Positions 16,774-25,539 of a DNA stretch of 64,000 bases are shown here, piece after piece; the stretch's first letter is position 1, and every line of letters starts with the position of its first letter. This DNA comes from Candidatus Dormiibacterota bacterium (lineage in GTDB: Bacteria; Chloroflexota; Dormibacteria; Aeolococcales; Aeolococcaceae). The translations under genes and the position numbers were made by a program. The notes below the pieces were generated by a model. That model did not search any database and had not been told where the DNA came from. It saw only the letters and a program-made list of their open reading frames with translations. The DNA is taken from assembly GCA_963709585.1 (NCBI GenBank), contig CAVPXI010000023.1:49045-113044 (forward strand). Reading direction: 5' to 3'.

Positions 16774-17690
16774 ATGCCGAAGCGCGCCGCCGCCCCGCAG
16801 CTCACCCTCGAGGGCGCCTGGCAGAGCTTTGACCGCTCCCTCCGAGCCGAGGGACGATCGCCCGAAACCCGGCGCGCCTATGCCCAATCGGTCGCTCAGT
16901 TCGGGGCCTATCTGCGCGACCGGAGCCTGGCGTCCGAGGTGGCCCTGATCGACCGCGGTGACCTCGAGAACTGGATCATCACCCTCCTCGACTCCCGCAA
17001 GCCCGCCACCGCAGCCACCCGTCACCACGCCCTGGCTCGCCTGTTCTCGTGGCTGGTGGCCGAGGGCGAACTGGATCGCTCCCCGATGGAGCGGATGGAA
17101 GTGCCGAAGGTCCCCGAGAATCCTCCGACCGTGCTGAGCATCGAGGACATGCGGCGCATCCTGGCGGTGTGCAAGGGCACCGAGTTCGATGAGCGCCGCG
17201 ACGCGGCTATCTTGCGCGTGCTGGTCGATACCGGCCTGCGCCTCGCCGAGCTCACCGGCCTGACCTTGGATGACGTCGACCTCGATGAGGGGTTGGCAAC
17301 AGTCACCGGCAAGGGCGGCGCCGCCGTGCCGTGCCACTCGGCGCGAAGTCGACGGCCGCACTCGACCGATACCTCAGGGTCCGCCACGCCCACCCGCACC
17401 ATCGCAGCTCGCACCTTTGGCTCGGCCAGAAAGGTCCGCTGACCGCGACCGGGATGCGCCAGGTGGTGCAGCGCCGGGCGCGTCAGGCAGGGTTGGATCA
17501 GCGCATCTGGCCGCATCTGTTCCGGCATACCGGCGCACATCAATGGCTCGCCGCGGGTGGCTCCGAGGGCGACCTGATGAGCCTCTATGGGTGGCGATCG
17601 AGCGCGATGCTGCGCCGCTACGGCTCGTCAGCGGCAGCCGAGCGCGCCCGCAAAGCGCACGCCGACCTCTCGTTGGGCGACCGGGTATGA
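16774..17690 (+). CDS. Tyrosine recombinase/integrase, about 305 aa, 1-nt frameshift near 17320
   Basis: Catalytic set DTGLR (R), GKG (K), PHLFRH (HxxR), YGW (W), RRY (Y), split over ORFs 16774..17442 and 17331..17690; adding one C restores GKGGRRRAVPLG. Confidence 0.9.
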
Positions 17691-18055
17691 CCGGGCTGCT
17701 CGCCGCCCGGATGGGCAAGGACGGCGCCGCGGTGCTCTGTGGCCAACCGACCTGTCCGTGCGAGATCGGGAGGATGATGGGCGCGCATCTAGTCGTGGCG
17801 CGCGGCCTGGTCGAGGTCCGCGATCCCCTCGGCAAACCGTATGACCCGCCGTGCTACGCCCAGCCTCGCAGTGTCGTCAAGCGTGTCCGCCACGCCGTGA
17901 TCGCGGGGACGAGACCGACATTGCGGCCCAGGGTGCAAGCCGCGACGCCCGCGTGGACCGTGGACCGCGTGGTCTTCCTGCCACAGCACCCGGAAGTGTG
18001 GGTGAAGTGCCCACGCTGCGGGAACCAGAGCAGGGTCCGCCCACGAGGTACCTAG
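17687..18055 (+). CDS. Hypothetical Cys-containing protein
   Basis: ATGA overlap with the integrase stop; CGQPTCPC and CPRCG motifs. Confidence 0.55.
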   Translation: MTGLLAARMGKDGAAVLCGQPTCPCEIGRMMGAHLVVARGLVEVRDPLGKPYDPPCYAQPRSVVKRVRHAVIAGTRPTLRPRVQAATPAWTVDRVVFLPQHPEVWVKCPRCGNQSRVRPRGT

Positions 18056-18177
18056 TAAGCACGGCGAACAAGACGCCGTGCTAGAGTACGTCCGTTCGTT
18101 ATCAGTAGCGCCGGATCGTCGGCCTCTGCCCTTTGGCTTCCATCCCATCGCGGGAGTGAGCGGGGCGAGGTCACGGC

Positions 18178-18444
18178 ATGCCCCTCGATCCCGCTGCCCG
18201 AACGCTCCGAGCCCGCATTGGCGCTTTCGCCATGCACTCGAAACATCCCATCGAAGCGACAACTCGCGGCGGCCTGGACGCCGCCTGGCAACGCTTCGTT
18301 CTCGAGGTCGATCCGGACGGCTTACTGTCTGAGTCGGAGCGCACGCGGCGAGCCAAGGCTGCGCAGCGAGCTCATATGGCCAGGATCGCGCTTCGAAGTG
18401 TGCAAGCCCGACAGGCGGCGAAGTCTTCAGGAGAATCGGGGTGA
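18178..18444 (+). CDS. Conserved hypothetical protein of phage-like islands
   Basis: RARIGAFAMH...RFVLEVDPDG...ERTRRAKAA...ARIALRS resembles small proteins I recall from actinobacterial phage-related islands. Confidence 0.65.
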   Translation: MPLDPAARTLRARIGAFAMHSKHPIEATTRGGLDAAWQRFVLEVDPDGLLSESERTRRAKAAQRAHMARIALRSVQARQAAKSSGESG

Positions 18445-20019
18445 TGGGCGAGGACCCTGCCAGGGGTCCCCTGCCCGACCACGACGACAACGCTGACGAT
18501 AACACCGGCGCGGATGAGGCGTTGCTCGCGGCCGCGCAGCAAGTCATCGATAGGGGGTTAGATGTCGGTCCCAACCTCGCGGGGCTGACGCCCGAGGAAC
18601 GGGCCAGCGCACTCGCGGCCTTCGCGCACGAGATCGTCCGGGTACCGCCTCCCCTCGCCGATGTGCTCGCGTCGACGTGCGAACTCCTGCGCCGCTACAT
18701 CGTCCTACCTGCCGATCACTACTACCTGGTGGTCGCGCTCTGGATCCTGCACGCGCACGCGATCACGGCAGCCGACACCACGCCGCGGCTGATCTTCAAG
18801 TCGCCCGAGAAGGAAAGCGGGAAAACCCGTTGCCTCGAGTGTCTCGACGCGCTGGTGCCGGCGCCGCTGCAGGTCATCAGCGTCACCACGGCCGCGATCT
18901 TCCGACTGCTCAAGGAGGAGCAGGTGACCGTGTTGTTTGACGAGGTGGACGCCATCTTCAATCCACGGGCGACCAACCAGGAGGATTTGAGGGCACTGTT
19001 GAACGCCGGGTATCGCCGCGGCGCGACGGTTGCTCGAAGTCGTCGGCGACGGTAAACGGATGCGGGTCGAACGATTCCCGGTCTTTGCCGCCACCGCACT
19101 CGCCGCGATCGGCGATCTCCCCGACACGATCGAATCGCGGTCGATCATCGTCCCGATGCGCCGGCGCGCACCCGATGAGACCGTGGCGAAGTTCCGTAGC
19201 CGCCAGGTCGCGCTCGAGGTCGTGGAATTGCGCGGCGACCTGGTCAACTGGGCATCGATTTATTCCGCGGAGCTCAGCAGAGCGGATCCTGTCATGCCGG
19301 ACGGTCTTGAGGATCGGACCGAAGACTGCTGGGCGCCGCTGCTCGCCATCGCCGACATGGCCGGCGAGGAGTGGGGCGAGCGAGCCCGTGCAGCCGCACT
19401 GCTGATCGCCAAAGGTCGCGTCGCCGAGGATGCGTCCACAGGCGTCCGCCTGCTGGCCGATATCAAGACCGTCCTCGGCGACCGCGACCGCCTGTCCAGC
19501 GCCGGACTCTGCGCGATGCTCAACGCGCTCGAGGAATCGGGGTGGGGAGGATGGAACGACGGCCGCGGCATCGGTCAACGTGACCTGGCGAAGCGGCTGA
19601 AGCGCTACTTCATTGAGTCGAAGAACATCAGGCTCGGTGACGGCTCGGTCCCGAAGGGTTACCTGCGCAGCGACTTTGACGATGCCTTCGCTCGCTACCT
19701 GCGCCTTCCTGCTCTTACAAGCGCTACAAGCGCTACAAGCGCTACGCAGGTTCGAATTGACGTAGCGGACGTAGCGCCTGTAGCGGTTACTAGGGGAGAG
19801 AGAGAAGTCGGCCGGGAAGACGACGGTCACCCCACACAGGAGACATCCGCGACGCCGCTGGAGACGTTTCAACACCAGGTCGATGCAACGCTCACGAAGG
19901 TCAATGGACTGCAACCCGGCTGGCTTGAAGCCGATGATCAGCGCCGCCGCGAGTTGATGGAGGCCGGCATGCGACACAAAGCGGAGCACAGTCGTCACAC
20001 ACATAGGAGGCACCCATGA
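18441..20019 (+). CDS. DUF3631-type replication protein with helicase-like P-loop; 1-nt frameshift near 19040
   Basis: Walker A-like SPEKESGKT, Walker B VLFDEVD, LLNAGYRRG, LPDTIESRSI, GVRLLADIK; two overlapping ORFs join if one A is removed. Confidence 0.78.
19717..19786. repeat. Iteron-like 9-bp direct repeats followed by inverted copies; putative origin
   Basis: ACAAGCGCT x3 (GCTAC at 19723, 19732, 19741), then GTAGC at 19762, 19771, 19780. Confidence 0.7.
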
Positions 20020-24287: not shown

Positions 24288-24289
24288 CC

Positions 24290-25124
24290 ATGGCCGGACA
24301 GAGTCGCACCCTACGGGGACGTCGACTATGCAGATCCAGGTCTCCAAGCCGACAAGGTCAAGCGCTATCCGATCGATACCAAGGCGCACGCGAAGGCCGC
24401 GTGGACGCTCATCAACATGAGCTCGCACGCCTCGCAGTATTCGGCTGCGGACCTCGCGCTGGTCAAGGGCAGGATCCTGACGGCGTGTCATCACTTCGAC
24501 GTCGAGGTGAGCGAGAACGCCCTGCCGCGCGAGGGGTTGATCCGGGCGCTCTCGGGCCTGGAGATCCGCGACGATGGCGGCGCGGATGGCAGTCCGGGGA
24601 CATTGACCGGATACCTCGCGGTGTTCAATCAATGGAGCGAAATCAACTCGGCCCACGAAGGTCACTTCATGGAGCGGATGGCGCCGGGATCGTTCGCCCG
24701 GACCATCGCTGACAACGCGTCACGCATGAAGGTCACCTTCAATCACGGTAAGGATCCGCAGTTGGGCGACAAGGTGCTGGGCATCCCCACCGTCCTCGAG
24801 GAGGACAGCCGCGGAGTGCGCTATGAGGTGCCGCTGTTCGACACATCATGGAATCGCGACCTTGCTCCCGGATTGAAGGCCGGCGCCTACGGCTCCAGCT
24901 TCCGGTTCAACGTGGCCGCCGACGACTACAACAAGAAGGCCAGGGTCGCTCCGCACAACCCCAGAGGCTTGCCGGAGAGGACGGTCAAGGAAGTCCGCAT
25001 GCAGGAGTTCGGCCCGGTCACCTTCCCCGCATACCCGGGCGCGACCGCGGGGATGCGCTCGCTGACGTCGCCCGCGCGCGGTCAATCCGTGTTCGAGGAG
25101 TTCCTACAGCTGATCGGAGGCTGA
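24290..25124 (+). CDS. HK97-family prohead protease with extra N-terminal domain; 1-nt insertion near 24296
   Basis: GYLAVFN, ERMAPGSF, FNHG, SSFRF, EFGPVTFPAY; the corrected frame starts MADRVAPYGDVDYADPG...KRYPIDT. Confidence 0.85.
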
Positions 25125-25290
25125 GCGTCGTGAAGGCGGTGTCCGTCGGTTTCGTTCACTCCGGGCCGCGGCACCGTCTTCACGGCGCCAACCATGGGGG
25201 CGGTTGCGTCGGTTCGAAGGGCACACCCACTCCGGCCGACGCGCCGCCTTCCCGTCGACGAAGGCCGGCGCTGACGGCTACCATGCGGCG

Positions 25291-25539
25291 GTGAGCGATG
25301 CCCCTGACGATGAGATCGAGATCGGCTGGGAGAGCTATGGACCTGGCGATAAGCCTCGCGACCTGACGTTCACGTTCAGGGAGCGCGGCGTCCATCTCGG
25401 GTCGCGCGAGGTGGAGTGCGACGGAGATCGATACTTCATCGTGACGCGTCCCGACGGGAGCGTCCAGCGGTACCGCCAGAACCCGGAGTCAGGCAAGCTC
25501 GAAAAGGTCGACGAGATCCCCTGCGGTGATCCGGAGTGA
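25291..25539 (+). CDS. Hypothetical protein
   Basis: 82-aa ORF ending 6 nt before the left arm of site B. Confidence 0.5.
   Translation: MSDAPDDEIEIGWESYGPGDKPRDLTFTFRERGVHLGSREVECDGDRYFIVTRPDGSVQRYRQNPESGKLEKVDEIPCGDPE

What the first reader, a model, noticed from the sequence alone, without database searches (positions are those of the whole stretch)
16774..25539. Capsid- and terminase-encoding satellite with no portal, tail or clear small terminase
Seen: the gene order is integrase, two small ORFs, helicase-like Rep, HNH, large terminase, unknown, capsid, protease, unknown. The genes are tightly packed between att sites and no ORF is large enough to be a portal. Known: capsid-forming PICIs encode their own portal, whereas the M. 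tuberculosis phiRv1/phiRv2 elements carry capsid and protease without a full head module. Inference: a satellite class that borrows the portal and tail from a helper phage, or whose capsid acts by interference, in a poorly studied lineage.
Basis: partly seen in the sequence, partly recalled or inferred. Interest (0 to 1): 0.7.

Follow-up and report, generated by a model that had tools for sequence, protein, structure and literature searches.

The report
Portal-less capsid-and-terminase phage satellite
A 9-kb mobile island inserted at the end of the 5S rRNA gene of an uncultured soil bacterium carries its own virus-shell, shell-protease and DNA-packaging genes but no portal or tail, so it most likely spreads by borrowing those parts from a helper phage; similar elements are already known, so it is a good new example and not a new kind.

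Summary
Window 16659-25643 is a discrete 8,970-bp element bounded by a 15-bp core that overlaps the 3' end of the 5S rRNA gene. Its gene order is tyrosine integrase, two small ORFs, P-loop/DUF3631 Rep, orf84, HNH, TerL, orf119, HK97 capsid with a helical scaffold domain of about 205 residues, DUF6582-S78 protease and a small ORF. There is no portal, connector, tail or lysis gene, and no room for one. A metagenome contig shows the empty site.

Three frame breaks (integrase, Rep, protease) look like assembly indels. Short-read contigs restore two of them.

Portal absence is conserved. All 27 adequately flanked relatives in the capsid clades lack a portal, and 25 of them have an integrase or Rep gene nearby. 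They form two well-supported clades across Dormibacterota and Actinomycetota. The refuting condition is therefore not met.

TerL is the odd part. Apart from one locus with a TerL about 7.6 kb away across a recombinase gene, only this element combines TerL with the clade's capsid. It is a mosaic of two modules.

The inventory matches the M. tuberculosis elements phiRv1/phiRv2, and portal-less mini HK97 genomes were published in 2026. No helper phage was found and no particles have been shown.

Verdict: a probable helper-dependent satellite and a new member of a known kind.

The parts
16659..16673 (+). Left copy of the 15-bp att core TTGCCGGGTATCTCT. It overlaps the last 9 nt of the 5S rRNA gene (16551-16667).
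   Evidence: The empty-site contig joins the 5S end directly to the 25629 copy.
16674..16773 (+). Left arm of the element, with repeated boxes (AAACAGAGCAGGTAA, ATAGCACGGCG) that also occur at the right end. These are probably integrase-binding sites.
   Evidence: (family D5). The function is inferred.
16774..17690 (+). XerC/D-type tyrosine integrase, about 305 aa. The assembly splits it by a 1-nt frame break near 17315.
   Evidence: PF02899 and PF00589 3-66 in 16774-17442, and PF00589 70-170 in 17331-17690. GC3 changes frame at about 17310. Short-read contigs X2 (0 mismatches) and X3 carry an extra C behind 17315.
17696..18055 (+). Small Cys-rich (zinc-ribbon-like) ORF of unknown role. The exact start is uncertain.
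   Evidence: GC3 frame signal over 17670-17940. No Pfam, PHROG, NCBIfam or PADLOC hit.
18178..18444 (+). orf88, a small conserved ORF found just after the integrase in distant relatives (L015, L024, L029).
   Evidence: No family hit.
18441..20019 (+). Replication protein with a P-loop N-terminal half and a DUF3631 C-terminal half. The assembly splits it by a 1-nt frame break near 19037.
   Evidence: PF12307 E 2.3e-52. The two halves are contiguous and in frame in L002. An X1 contig lacks one base at 19037. Some DUF3631 ORFs in relatives also match my AAA_25 profile.
20016..20270 (+). orf84, unknown. An 84-aa ORF sits in a similar position upstream of HNH-TerL in L209, but homology between the two was not shown.
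20267..20641 (+). HNH endonuclease of the type that accompanies cos-type terminases.
   Evidence: PF01844. phrog_144 E 4.7e-20. 65% identical to the HNH beside TerL in L042.
20642..20806 (+). Non-coding spacer with a block conserved in the TerL-bearing relatives (around GCCACAATCCCGGTTACACAC...CGCGATCGC). Candidate cos/packaging site or promoter.
   Evidence: GC3 shows no coding signal. Alignment with L042 and L209. The function is inferred.
20807..22258 (+). Large terminase (483 aa, GTG start) with intact Walker A (GNGKT) and Walker B (VVDE) motifs.
   Evidence: PF03354 and PF20441. phrog_9 E 3.5e-97. Homologues are 481-485 aa long. dN/dS 0.17-0.19 against L042 and L209.
22309..22626 (+). orf119 (105 aa from M15). 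This family-specific protein lies just upstream of the capsid gene in most closest relatives (within about 1.2 kb upstream in the L037 type). Function unknown.
   Evidence: 22 hits in 21 loci. AF2 model with pLDDT 75, four strands and two long helices. No significant match in PDB or BFVD. No Pfam match.
22818..24287 (+). HK97-type major capsid protein (489 aa) with an all-helical N-terminal scaffold (delta-like) domain of about 205 residues.
   Evidence: PF05065. TIGR01554. AF2 pLDDT 80.5. Best PDB matches are the capsids of mycobacteriophage Mycofy1 (E 8e-22), RcGTA, cf-PICI EcCI2, HK97 and SaPI1, with no encapsulin in the top 50. dN/dS 0.23-0.29.
24290..25124 (+). Prohead protease with a DUF6582 N-terminal domain and a Peptidase_S78 domain. 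As assembled, ATG 24290 is one base out of frame with the rest; the break is near 24296.
   Evidence: PF20223 E 7.8e-15 and PF04586 E 1.8e-23 on the frame 24288-25124. Comparison with the L002 start MAGDAPYGDVDYAD. This break is not covered by same-strain reads.
25291..25539 (+). Last small ORF (82 aa from GTG 25291; the ORF is open from 25204). Homologues in L002 and L133 only. Function unknown.
   Evidence: No family hit.
25545..25643 (+). Right arm boxes (25545-25613) and the right copy of the 15-bp att core (25629-25643).
25644..29030 (+). Neighbouring module 2, not part of the element. It is the remnant of a related element: it keeps an orf119-type gene (26558-26881) and upstream sequence whose translation closely matches L004, but has no capsid gene.

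Best explanation
This is an integrated, helper-dependent phage satellite of the phiRv1 type.

Shown:
- It is a discrete 8,970-bp unit at the 3' end of the 5S rRNA gene, and the site is polymorphic in the natural population.
- It encodes an integrase, a P-loop/DUF3631 replication protein, HNH, TerL, an HK97 capsid protein with a built-in scaffold domain, and an S78 prohead protease.
- These genes are under purifying selection.
- Neither it nor any adequately flanked relative in its capsid clades encodes a portal, connector, tail or lysis gene.

Inferred mechanism:
- When a helper phage infects or is induced, the element excises and replicates.
- Its capsid protein assembles around the helper's portal into a small shell, roughly T=3 to T=4, which would fit about 9 kb.
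- Its own protease removes the scaffold domain.
- Its own HNH and TerL cut and package the element's DNA from a site probably in the 165-bp spacer upstream of terL.
- The helper's neck and tail complete the particle.
- In most relatives the terminase must also be borrowed.

The element is a mosaic of two modules found separately elsewhere: a packaging module (orf84?-HNH-TerL) and a shell module (orf119-MCP-protease-small ORF).
For: - Boundaries and mobility: the 15-bp core occurs four times against 0.04 expected. A 634-nt contig in run X3, at depth 12.4, joins 15 nt of the 5S end to 25629-26247, which skips the element exactly.
- Gene identities. Capsid fold.
- Intactness: short-read contigs restore the integrase and Rep frames. 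dN/dS is 0.16-0.29 for TerL, MCP, protease and HNH.
- No portal or second head module in the 3.52-Mb genome.
- Conservation of the portal-less design: of 149 distinct capsid loci, 74 have a portal (4 of them with int or Rep nearby). 27 with enough flank have none (25 of them with int or Rep nearby).
- On the capsid tree the portal-less loci form two starred clades of 16 and 9 rows plus two single rows. This needs 4 changes (3 forced by well-supported branches), against 24 for shuffled labels, and 0 of 500 shuffles were as low.
- Fully delimited relatives carry only MCP, with or without protease, as head genes. These are L032 in comM (about 10 kb), L035 at tmRNA, L037 at a tRNA, and L148, a 7.8-kb contig with a 47-bp terminal overlap.
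- Large unassigned ORFs beside the capsid gene in distant members are host genes or D5-like Rep, not portals.
- Mosaic origin: the closest TerL relatives (77-80% identity) sit in different small elements with HNH directly upstream.
- Precedent: phiRv1 has the same inventory (PMC12268328), and it is classed as a putative satellite (PMC10085698).
Against: - No helper phage is identified. The genome (88.8% complete) has no portal of either family searched and no other terminase of the one family searched.
- No attP junction or circular form of this element was seen in the four runs examined.
- No particle or packaging data exist for this clade or for phiRv1/2.
- No small terminase or head-tail adaptor was recognised.
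- The function of orf119 is unresolved.
- As assembled, three genes are frame-broken, and the protease break could not be checked against reads.
- The element is rare: 2 of 151 sampled genomes of the phylum have a capsid homologue.
- Assembly of a foreign capsid protein on a helper's portal is assumed, not shown.
Confidence: 0.6

Rival explanations
1. Capsid-based interference or a domesticated shell. The element is mobile by some other route, or not at all. Its capsid and protease act mainly to poison or divert an infecting phage's head assembly, as an abortive defence, or they build a portal-less protein compartment. In this reading the element's DNA is not packaged.
For: - Most relatives keep only MCP, with or without protease, and have no packaging gene at all.
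- HK97-type capsid proteins can form portal-less shells (established knowledge).
- PMC13669383 discusses links between procapsids and encapsulins.
- No helper phage and no packaged form were seen.
Against: - This member carries an intact, selected TerL and HNH. These have no role without a portal and DNA packaging.
- The capsid is a phage-type PF05065/TIGR01554 protein, its best structural matches are virion capsids, and no encapsulin is in the top 50.
- There are no PADLOC hits.
- There is no cargo-type gene context.
- The narrow size range of 7.8-10.5 kb in delimited relatives fits a headful or capsid-size constraint.
Confidence: 0.15
2. Autonomous portal-less mini virus. The clade packages its genome without a portal, for example Rep-coupled entry of single-stranded DNA through capsid pores. 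This is offered as an alternative for 'twilight-zone' HK97 mini genomes.
For: - PMC13669383 raises this for portal-less mini genomes with RepA.
- Relatives combine MCP with Rep and an integrase only.
- L148 assembles as a 7.8-kb circle.
Against: - The Rep proteins here are P-loop DUF3631, AAA_25 or D5-like proteins, not HUH rolling-circle initiators.
- This member has a double-stranded-DNA terminase and HNH.
- There are no lysis or entry functions.
- No precedent exists for portal-less packaging by HK97-fold capsids.
Confidence: 0.05
3. Decaying remnant of a full prophage that has lost its portal, tail and lysis genes. On this reading the frame breaks are real pseudogenisation.
For: - There are three frame breaks in 9 kb as assembled.
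- The adjacent modules (25644-29540) are clearly remnants.
Against: - Two of the three breaks are absent from short-read contigs.
- Same-strain contigs show about one indel per 5 kb, as expected from a long-read consensus.
- dN/dS is well below 1.
- The portal-less layout is shared by whole clades, and gene order is compact and conserved.
- The att core is intact on both sides, and an exact empty site exists.
- Genes abut with no debris between terL and the capsid gene.
Confidence: 0.08

Closest known systems
phiRv1 / phiRv2 prophage-like elements of Mycobacterium tuberculosis (Hendrix 1999; Bibb & Hatfull 2002; filed as putative PICI-type satellites in PMC10085698)
   Same: - An integrated element of about 10 kb.
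- The inventory is integrase, primase/replication protein, terminase, prohead protease and capsid protein.
- It has no portal, tail or lysis genes (PMC12268328).
- It integrates site-specifically.
- No particles have ever been shown.
   Different: - The host phylum differs (Dormibacterota-like, by the relatives).
- The integrase is a tyrosine recombinase; from memory, phiRv1 uses a serine integrase.
- The att site lies in the 5S rRNA gene.
- An HNH gene is present.
- The order is capsid then protease, and the protease carries a DUF6582 domain.
- Sequence homology to the phiRv proteins was not tested here.
- The nearest mycobacterial locus in my set (L015) has a capsid protein only 35% identical.
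Portal-less 'twilight-zone' mini HK97 genomes (Aguilar et al., Nat Commun 2026, PMC13669383)
   Same: - The size falls in the 5-11.6 kb range.
- They carry an HK97-fold capsid with a scaffold, an integrase and a RepA-like ATPase.
- They have no portal, connector or tail.
- The authors propose a satellite lifestyle as one explanation.
- The window's TerL-less relatives fit this description well.
   Different: - The paper's main group comes from the human gut, has encapsulin-type capsid domains and has no terminase.
- This element comes from soil.
- Its capsid is plainly phage-type.
- It has an S78 protease, and it also has HNH and TerL.
Capsid-forming PICIs (cf-PICI, e.g. EcCIEDL933; bioRxiv 10.1101/2022.09.08.507074)
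   Same: - It is a satellite that makes its own small capsid with its own MCP and protease.
- It packages with its own HNH and TerL.
- The capsid fold resembles that of cf-PICI EcCI2 (PDB 9gyi, E 1e-11).
- A true cf-PICI-like relative of the TerL exists (L047/L048: MCP-portal-protease-x-TerL).
   Different: cf-PICIs encode a portal, head-tail connectors and TerS, and borrow only the tail. None of these three was found here.
SaPIbov5-type cos SaPIs with Ccm (from memory; Carpena et al. 2016)
   Same: A satellite that carries a homologue of the HK97-fold capsid protein, has no portal and depends on the helper's HNH-cos packaging system.
   Different: - Ccm modifies the helper's capsid and does not replace it.
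- These SaPIs have no protease or TerL of their own.
- This comparison rests on memory and was not tested.

Membership tests
phiRv1/phiRv2-like small prophage-like elements | An integrated element of about 10 kb with integrase, primase/replication protein, terminase, prohead protease and capsid | tested here: met
   8,970 bp, with int, DUF3631 Rep, TerL, S78 protease and HK97 MCP. The phiRv1 inventory is taken from PMC12268328.
phiRv1/phiRv2-like small prophage-like elements | No portal, tail or lysis genes | tested here: met
   No PF04860 or PF05133 match anywhere in the genome. No unassigned ORF over 119 aa in the element.
phiRv1/phiRv2-like small prophage-like elements | Sequence homology of the capsid, protease, terminase and primase to the M. 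tuberculosis proteins | not tested
The nearest Mycobacterium locus (L015) has 35% capsid identity and lies in the other portal-less clade.
Capsid-forming PICI (cf-PICI) | Own portal protein | tested here: not met
   coding capacity
Capsid-forming PICI (cf-PICI) | Own head-tail connectors and small terminase | tested here: not met
   No Pfam, PHROG or NCBIfam hit for any small ORF. The orf119 fold has no match. Divergent versions cannot be excluded.
Capsid-forming PICI (cf-PICI) | Own MCP, maturation protease, HNH and TerL; no tail genes | tested here: met
Portal-less mini HK97 genomes (PMC13669383) | A 5-11.6 kb genome with HK97 MCP and scaffold, integrase and RepA-like gene; no portal or tail | tested here: met
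Portal-less mini HK97 genomes (PMC13669383) | No terminase or other packaging gene (main group) | tested here: not met
   TerL and HNH are present here. The feature is met in the window's closest capsid relatives.
Portal-less mini HK97 genomes (PMC13669383) | Encapsulin-type domains in the MCP (the paper's dominant group) | tested here: not met
   Only PF05065 and TIGR01554 match. The top 50 PDB fold matches are all virion or GTA capsids.
Phage satellite (general) | Mobilised and packaged by a helper phage's particles | not testable with these tools
   No helper was identified and there are no particle data. Only population polymorphism of the insertion is shown.
Actinomycete integrative and conjugative element (AICE) | FtsK/TraB-type DNA translocase for conjugative transfer | tested here: not met
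   No such domain in any ORF.

The most novel reading that the evidence does not exclude
The capsid clade is an old satellite lineage that spans phyla (Dormibacterota, Thermoleophilia, Gaiellales and other Actinomycetota). Its conserved hijacking device would be a private capsid protein with a fused scaffold, plus the orf119-type protein in the window's sub-clade. That protein would assemble a small shell on a stolen portal. The window's element would be the member that also brings its own motor (HNH and TerL), so it would steal only the portal, neck and tail. No experiment has yet shown this division of labour. It would settle the open question in PMC13669383 in favour of the satellite explanation.
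Probability: 0.4. Interest if true: 0.65.

Novelty: new member of a known kind. Interest (0 to 1): 0.45.

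Why it matters
Small elements that encode a virus shell but no portal have been known since phiRv1/phiRv2 (1998-2002). They have just been catalogued at scale from metagenomes. Nobody has shown how, or whether, they package DNA.

This locus adds three useful things.
- It gives comparative evidence that the portal-less state is ancestral to two well-supported capsid clades and is under purifying selection. The elements are therefore not debris.
- It is a member that pairs the portal-less shell module with an intact terminase and HNH. 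That is hard to explain unless a portal is supplied in trans, so it favours the satellite hypothesis over portal-free packaging.
- It points to cultured strains that carry clade members and could be used for experiments: Streptomyces sp. BH104, S. chiangmaiensis JCM 16577, Nocardiopsis terrae KCTC 19431 and Allosalinactinospora lopnorensis CA15-2.

It also documents the 3' end of a 5S rRNA gene as an integration site, with an exact empty site in nature.

Tried and rejected
- orf119 as a small terminase, connector or scaffold. A profile search against PDB sequences, Pfam on 11 members, an AF2 model and Foldseek against PDB and BFVD gave nothing significant (no E <= 0.001; TM <= 0.48 in PDB). 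The function stays unknown.
- The small ORFs against PHROGs, NCBIfam and PADLOC: no hits. No known defence cargo was detected.
- A resident helper prophage. There is no HK97- or SPP1-type portal, no second capsid gene and no second TerL of the PF03354 family in the 3.52-Mb genome. Other portal families were not searched.
- A circular or attP junction of this element in four soil runs: not seen. Only the empty site was found.
- Terminal repeats in the small relatives' contigs: found only in L148.
- IMG/VR holds no close relative; the best capsid identity is 37%. Cultured phages are distant: capsid 28-35% to Rhodococcus, Gordonia and Mycobacterium phages, and TerL about 34% to phiC31/phiBT1-type Streptomyces phages.
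- The 92-nt, 79% repeat as attL/attR. Rejected in favour of the 15-bp core; the rest is the arm of the next tandem module.
- The 473-aa S78 protein of L042/L209 as a protease-capsid fusion. Rejected: the protease domain is C-terminal and there is no capsid-profile hit.
- AICE and encapsulin readings: rejected (see the membership tests).
- The third frame break (protease start) could not be checked, because no same-strain contig covers 24202-24392.

Full report
**What is there**

The window holds one rRNA operon: 16S at 9161-10674, 23S at 12147-16387 and 5S at 16551-16667. A densely packed block of plus-strand genes follows immediately. Its G+C content is 62-70%, in line with the contigs of the genome, which run at 65-70%.

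Third-codon-position G+C picks out the coding frames clearly. Pfam, PHROGs and NCBIfam identify these genes:
- a XerC/D-type tyrosine integrase (16774-17690);
- a small Cys-rich ORF (about 17696-18055);
- orf88 (18178-18444);
- a replication protein with Walker A and B motifs in its first half and DUF3631 (E 2e-52) in its second half (18441-20019);
- orf84 (20016-20270);
- an HNH endonuclease (20267-20641);
- a 165-bp non-coding spacer;
- a large terminase (20807-22258; phrog_9 E 3.5e-97);
- orf119 (22309-22626);
- an HK97-family major capsid protein (22818-24287; PF05065, TIGR01554);
- a prohead protease with DUF6582 and Peptidase_S78 domains (24290-25124);
- a last small ORF (25291-25539).

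No ORF without an assignment exceeds 119 aa, so there is no room for a portal. Six-frame searches of the whole 3.52-Mb genome with the HK97-type and SPP1-type portal profiles found nothing. This capsid gene and this terminase are the only ones of their families in the genome.

**Boundaries and mobility**

The 92-nt, 79% direct repeat is not a simple attL/attR pair. The exact repeat is a 15-bp core, TTGCCGGGTATCTCT. It occurs four times in the window (16659, 25629, 29031, 29541), against 0.04 expected by chance. The first copy overlaps the last 9 nt of the 5S gene.

The capsid element is therefore the first and largest of several modules integrated in tandem behind the 5S gene. It spans 16659-25643, or 8,970 bp from core to core. 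The next module (25644-29030) is a remnant of a related element. It keeps an orf119-type gene (26558-26881) that closely resembles those of relatives L037, L131 and L004, but it has no capsid gene.

One soil metagenome (run X3) gives direct evidence of mobility. A 634-nt contig at depth 12.4 consists of the last 15 nt before the core in the 5S gene, followed by window 25629-26247 with a single mismatch. That is the exact empty site for this element. Element sequences in the same run lie at depth 2.5-5. The insertion is therefore polymorphic in nature, and the core marks its ends. No attP junction was seen.

**Are the genes alive?**

As assembled, three genes are frame-broken.
- The integrase breaks near 17315.
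- Rep breaks near 19037.
- The protease's DUF6582 domain starts before the first start codon of its frame, while ATG 24290 is one base out of register.

Short-read contigs from the same study contradict two of these. X2 (176 nt, no mismatch) and X3 carry an extra C behind 17315. X1 lacks one base at 19037. Each change restores the reading frame. Elsewhere, same-strain contigs match the element without gaps. The breaks therefore look like consensus indels in a long-read assembly. The protease break is not covered by same-strain contigs.

Against their nearest relatives, TerL, MCP, protease and HNH have dN/dS of 0.16-0.29. TerL keeps its Walker A and B motifs.

The capsid model (pLDDT 80.5) has an all-helical N-terminal region of about 205 residues, followed by a standard HK97 fold. 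Its best structural matches are the capsids of mycobacteriophage Mycofy1 (E 8e-22), RcGTA, a cf-PICI, HK97 and SaPI1. No encapsulin appears among the top 50.

**Is the missing portal conserved?**

I collected relatives of the capsid protein from three sources:
- species-representative genomes (31 loci);
- IMG/VR (80 loci);
- JGI metagenomes (80 loci), plus gene contexts with precomputed Pfam hits.

I then annotated all 208 loci held by then with profiles grown from seeds that Pfam had already labelled.

Of 149 distinct capsid loci, 74 have a portal between terL and the protease/capsid genes. These are ordinary phage head modules, many with protease-capsid fusion proteins, and only 4 have an integrase or Rep nearby. 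Twenty-seven loci with enough flank have no portal, and 25 of these have an integrase or Rep nearby.

Every locus with at least 39% capsid identity to the window lacks a portal. On a maximum-likelihood capsid tree the portal-less loci form two well-supported clades. One has 16 rows: the window, Dormibacterota, Gaiella, Conexibacteraceae and other Actinomycetota. The other has 9 rows: Mycobacterium, Streptomyces, Nocardiopsis, Ilumatobacteraceae and one Anaerolineaceae. Two further rows stand alone. The label needs 4 changes (3 forced by well-supported branches) against 24 when shuffled, and none of 500 shuffles was as low.

Fully delimited relatives carry only the capsid gene, with or without the protease, as head genes:
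- L032, about 10 kb, splits comM;
- L035 sits at tmRNA;
- L037 and others sit at tRNA genes;
- L148 is a 7,840-bp contig with a 47-bp terminal overlap, meaning a circle of 7.8 kb, and carries integrase, an HTH regulator and the capsid gene.

Large unassigned ORFs beside the capsid gene in more distant members turned out to be host genes or a D5-like Rep.

**The terminase is the unusual part**

Among the portal-less loci only the window has a TerL beside the capsid gene. L008 has one 7.6 kb away, beyond a recombinase gene.

The closest TerL relatives (77-80% identity; L042, L043, L209) lie in different small elements. These run AAA_25 Rep, a 473-aa protein with a C-terminal S78 domain, small ORFs, HNH and then TerL, and they have no recognisable capsid gene. 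A 55%-identical TerL lies in a cf-PICI-like element with the order MCP-portal-protease-x-TerL.

The spacer between HNH and terL contains a block conserved among the window, L042 and L209. I take this block as a candidate packaging site.

The window's element is therefore a mosaic of a packaging module (HNH-spacer-TerL, perhaps with orf84) and a shell module (orf119-MCP-protease-small ORF). No small terminase was found. About eight related true phages also have HNH within 160 bp of terL with no gene between them, so this absence is not peculiar to the element.

**Most likely mechanism, and rivals**

I think a helper-dependent satellite is the best reading (confidence 0.6). The capsid protein would assemble on a helper's portal into a small shell. 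By analogy with P4 (11.6 kb, T=4) and the capacities quoted in PMC13669383, about 9 kb fits roughly T=3 to T=4. The element's own protease would mature the shell. Its own HNH and TerL would package its DNA. The helper's neck and tail would finish the particle.

Four things are shown: the gene content, the boundaries, the purifying selection and the clade-wide lack of a portal. The helper, the particle and the assembly on a foreign portal are inferred.

The rivals are:
- capsid-based interference or a domesticated shell (0.15), weakened by the intact terminase and the virion-type capsid;
- autonomous portal-free packaging (0.05), weakened by the non-HUH Rep proteins and the dsDNA terminase;
- a decaying prophage remnant (0.08), weakened by the read evidence, the selection and the conserved compact layout.

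**Comparison with what is known**

phiRv1 of M. tuberculosis is a 10-kb element with integrase, excisionase, primase, terminase, prohead protease and capsid, and no evidence of particles (PMC12268328). SatelliteFinder places phiRv1/2-like elements among putative PICI-type satellites (PMC10085698).

Aguilar et al. (PMC13669383) describe 5-11.6 kb HK97 'mini genomes' with integrase and RepA but no portal, tail or terminase. They leave open whether these are satellites or use portal-free packaging.

cf-PICIs and the Streptomyces satellites MiniFlayer and MulchRoom encode their own portal, so the window's element is not one of those.

It is thus a new member of a known kind. The points of difference are its host phylum, its 5S rRNA att site, its DUF6582-S78 protease downstream of the capsid gene, and the pairing of a portal-less shell module with its own terminase.

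The element is rare. Only 2 of 151 sampled genomes of the phylum hold a capsid homologue.

**Earlier notes of this scan**

Other notes had flagged the att array and the 5S target, and I confirmed both. They also described other partial-head-module satellites elsewhere. I used those as leads only.

Noticed in passing
window 10618-11400 and 12147-16387 (14892-15111): The 23S rRNA match spans 4,241 nt against a 2,925-nt model and contains a group I intron hit (66.7 bits). A second group I intron hit (55.4 bits) starts within the last bases of the 16S match and extends into the spacer downstream. Introns in bacterial rRNA genes are uncommon.
   Followed up: no
window 25644-29555: Further copies of the 15-bp att core at 29031 and 29541 bound short modules with no integrase of their own. 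This is a tandem array of remnants of related elements behind the 5S gene. Module 2 keeps an orf119-type gene and upstream sequence whose translation closely matches the region upstream of the capsid gene in L004.
   Followed up: partly
run X3 contig laid on window 25629-26247: An exact empty site: 15 nt of the 5S 3' end joined to the module-2 arm, at depth 12.4. Element sequences in the same run lie at depth 2.5-5.
   Followed up: yes
L148 (whole contig, 7,840 bp): This contig has a 47-bp terminal overlap, so it assembles as a circle of about 7.8 kb. It carries a tyrosine integrase, an HTH regulator, an HK97 capsid gene (45% identical to the window's) and unknown ORFs. It is probably a complete episomal or excised relative.
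   Followed up: partly
L042 / L043, 8947-13139: Beside the TerL-bearing element lies a second small element with its own integrase. It carries a 590-aa Gly/Ala-rich, membrane-spanning protein that looks like a tail tape-measure protein. This recalls the tape-measure-encoding EPIP satellites of Mycolicibacterium (PMC12822802).
   Followed up: no
L047 / L048 (GCA_009612815.1 contig WBZS01000142.1): A cf-PICI-like element of about 9 kb in a high-GC genome, with the order int, HTH_17, AAA_25 Rep, MCP (382 aa), portal (361 aa), S78 protease, a 105-aa ORF and TerL. The gene order is unusual for a head module.
   Followed up: no
many IMG/VR loci (e.g. L072, L085, L088, L099): In the related true phages, protease and major capsid protein are fused into single proteins of 750-1,200 aa.
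   Followed up: no
L032-L034, 4337-6655 and 14859-15476: The closest capsid relative is inserted in comM (Mg-chelatase-like competence gene) through a large serine recombinase. The gene caller fused the 5' part of comM to the recombinase.
   Followed up: no
window 17315, 19037, about 24296: Three single-base frame breaks occur within 9 kb. This suggests the assembly carries about one indel per few kilobases, so apparent pseudogenes elsewhere in this genome should be read with care.
   Followed up: partly
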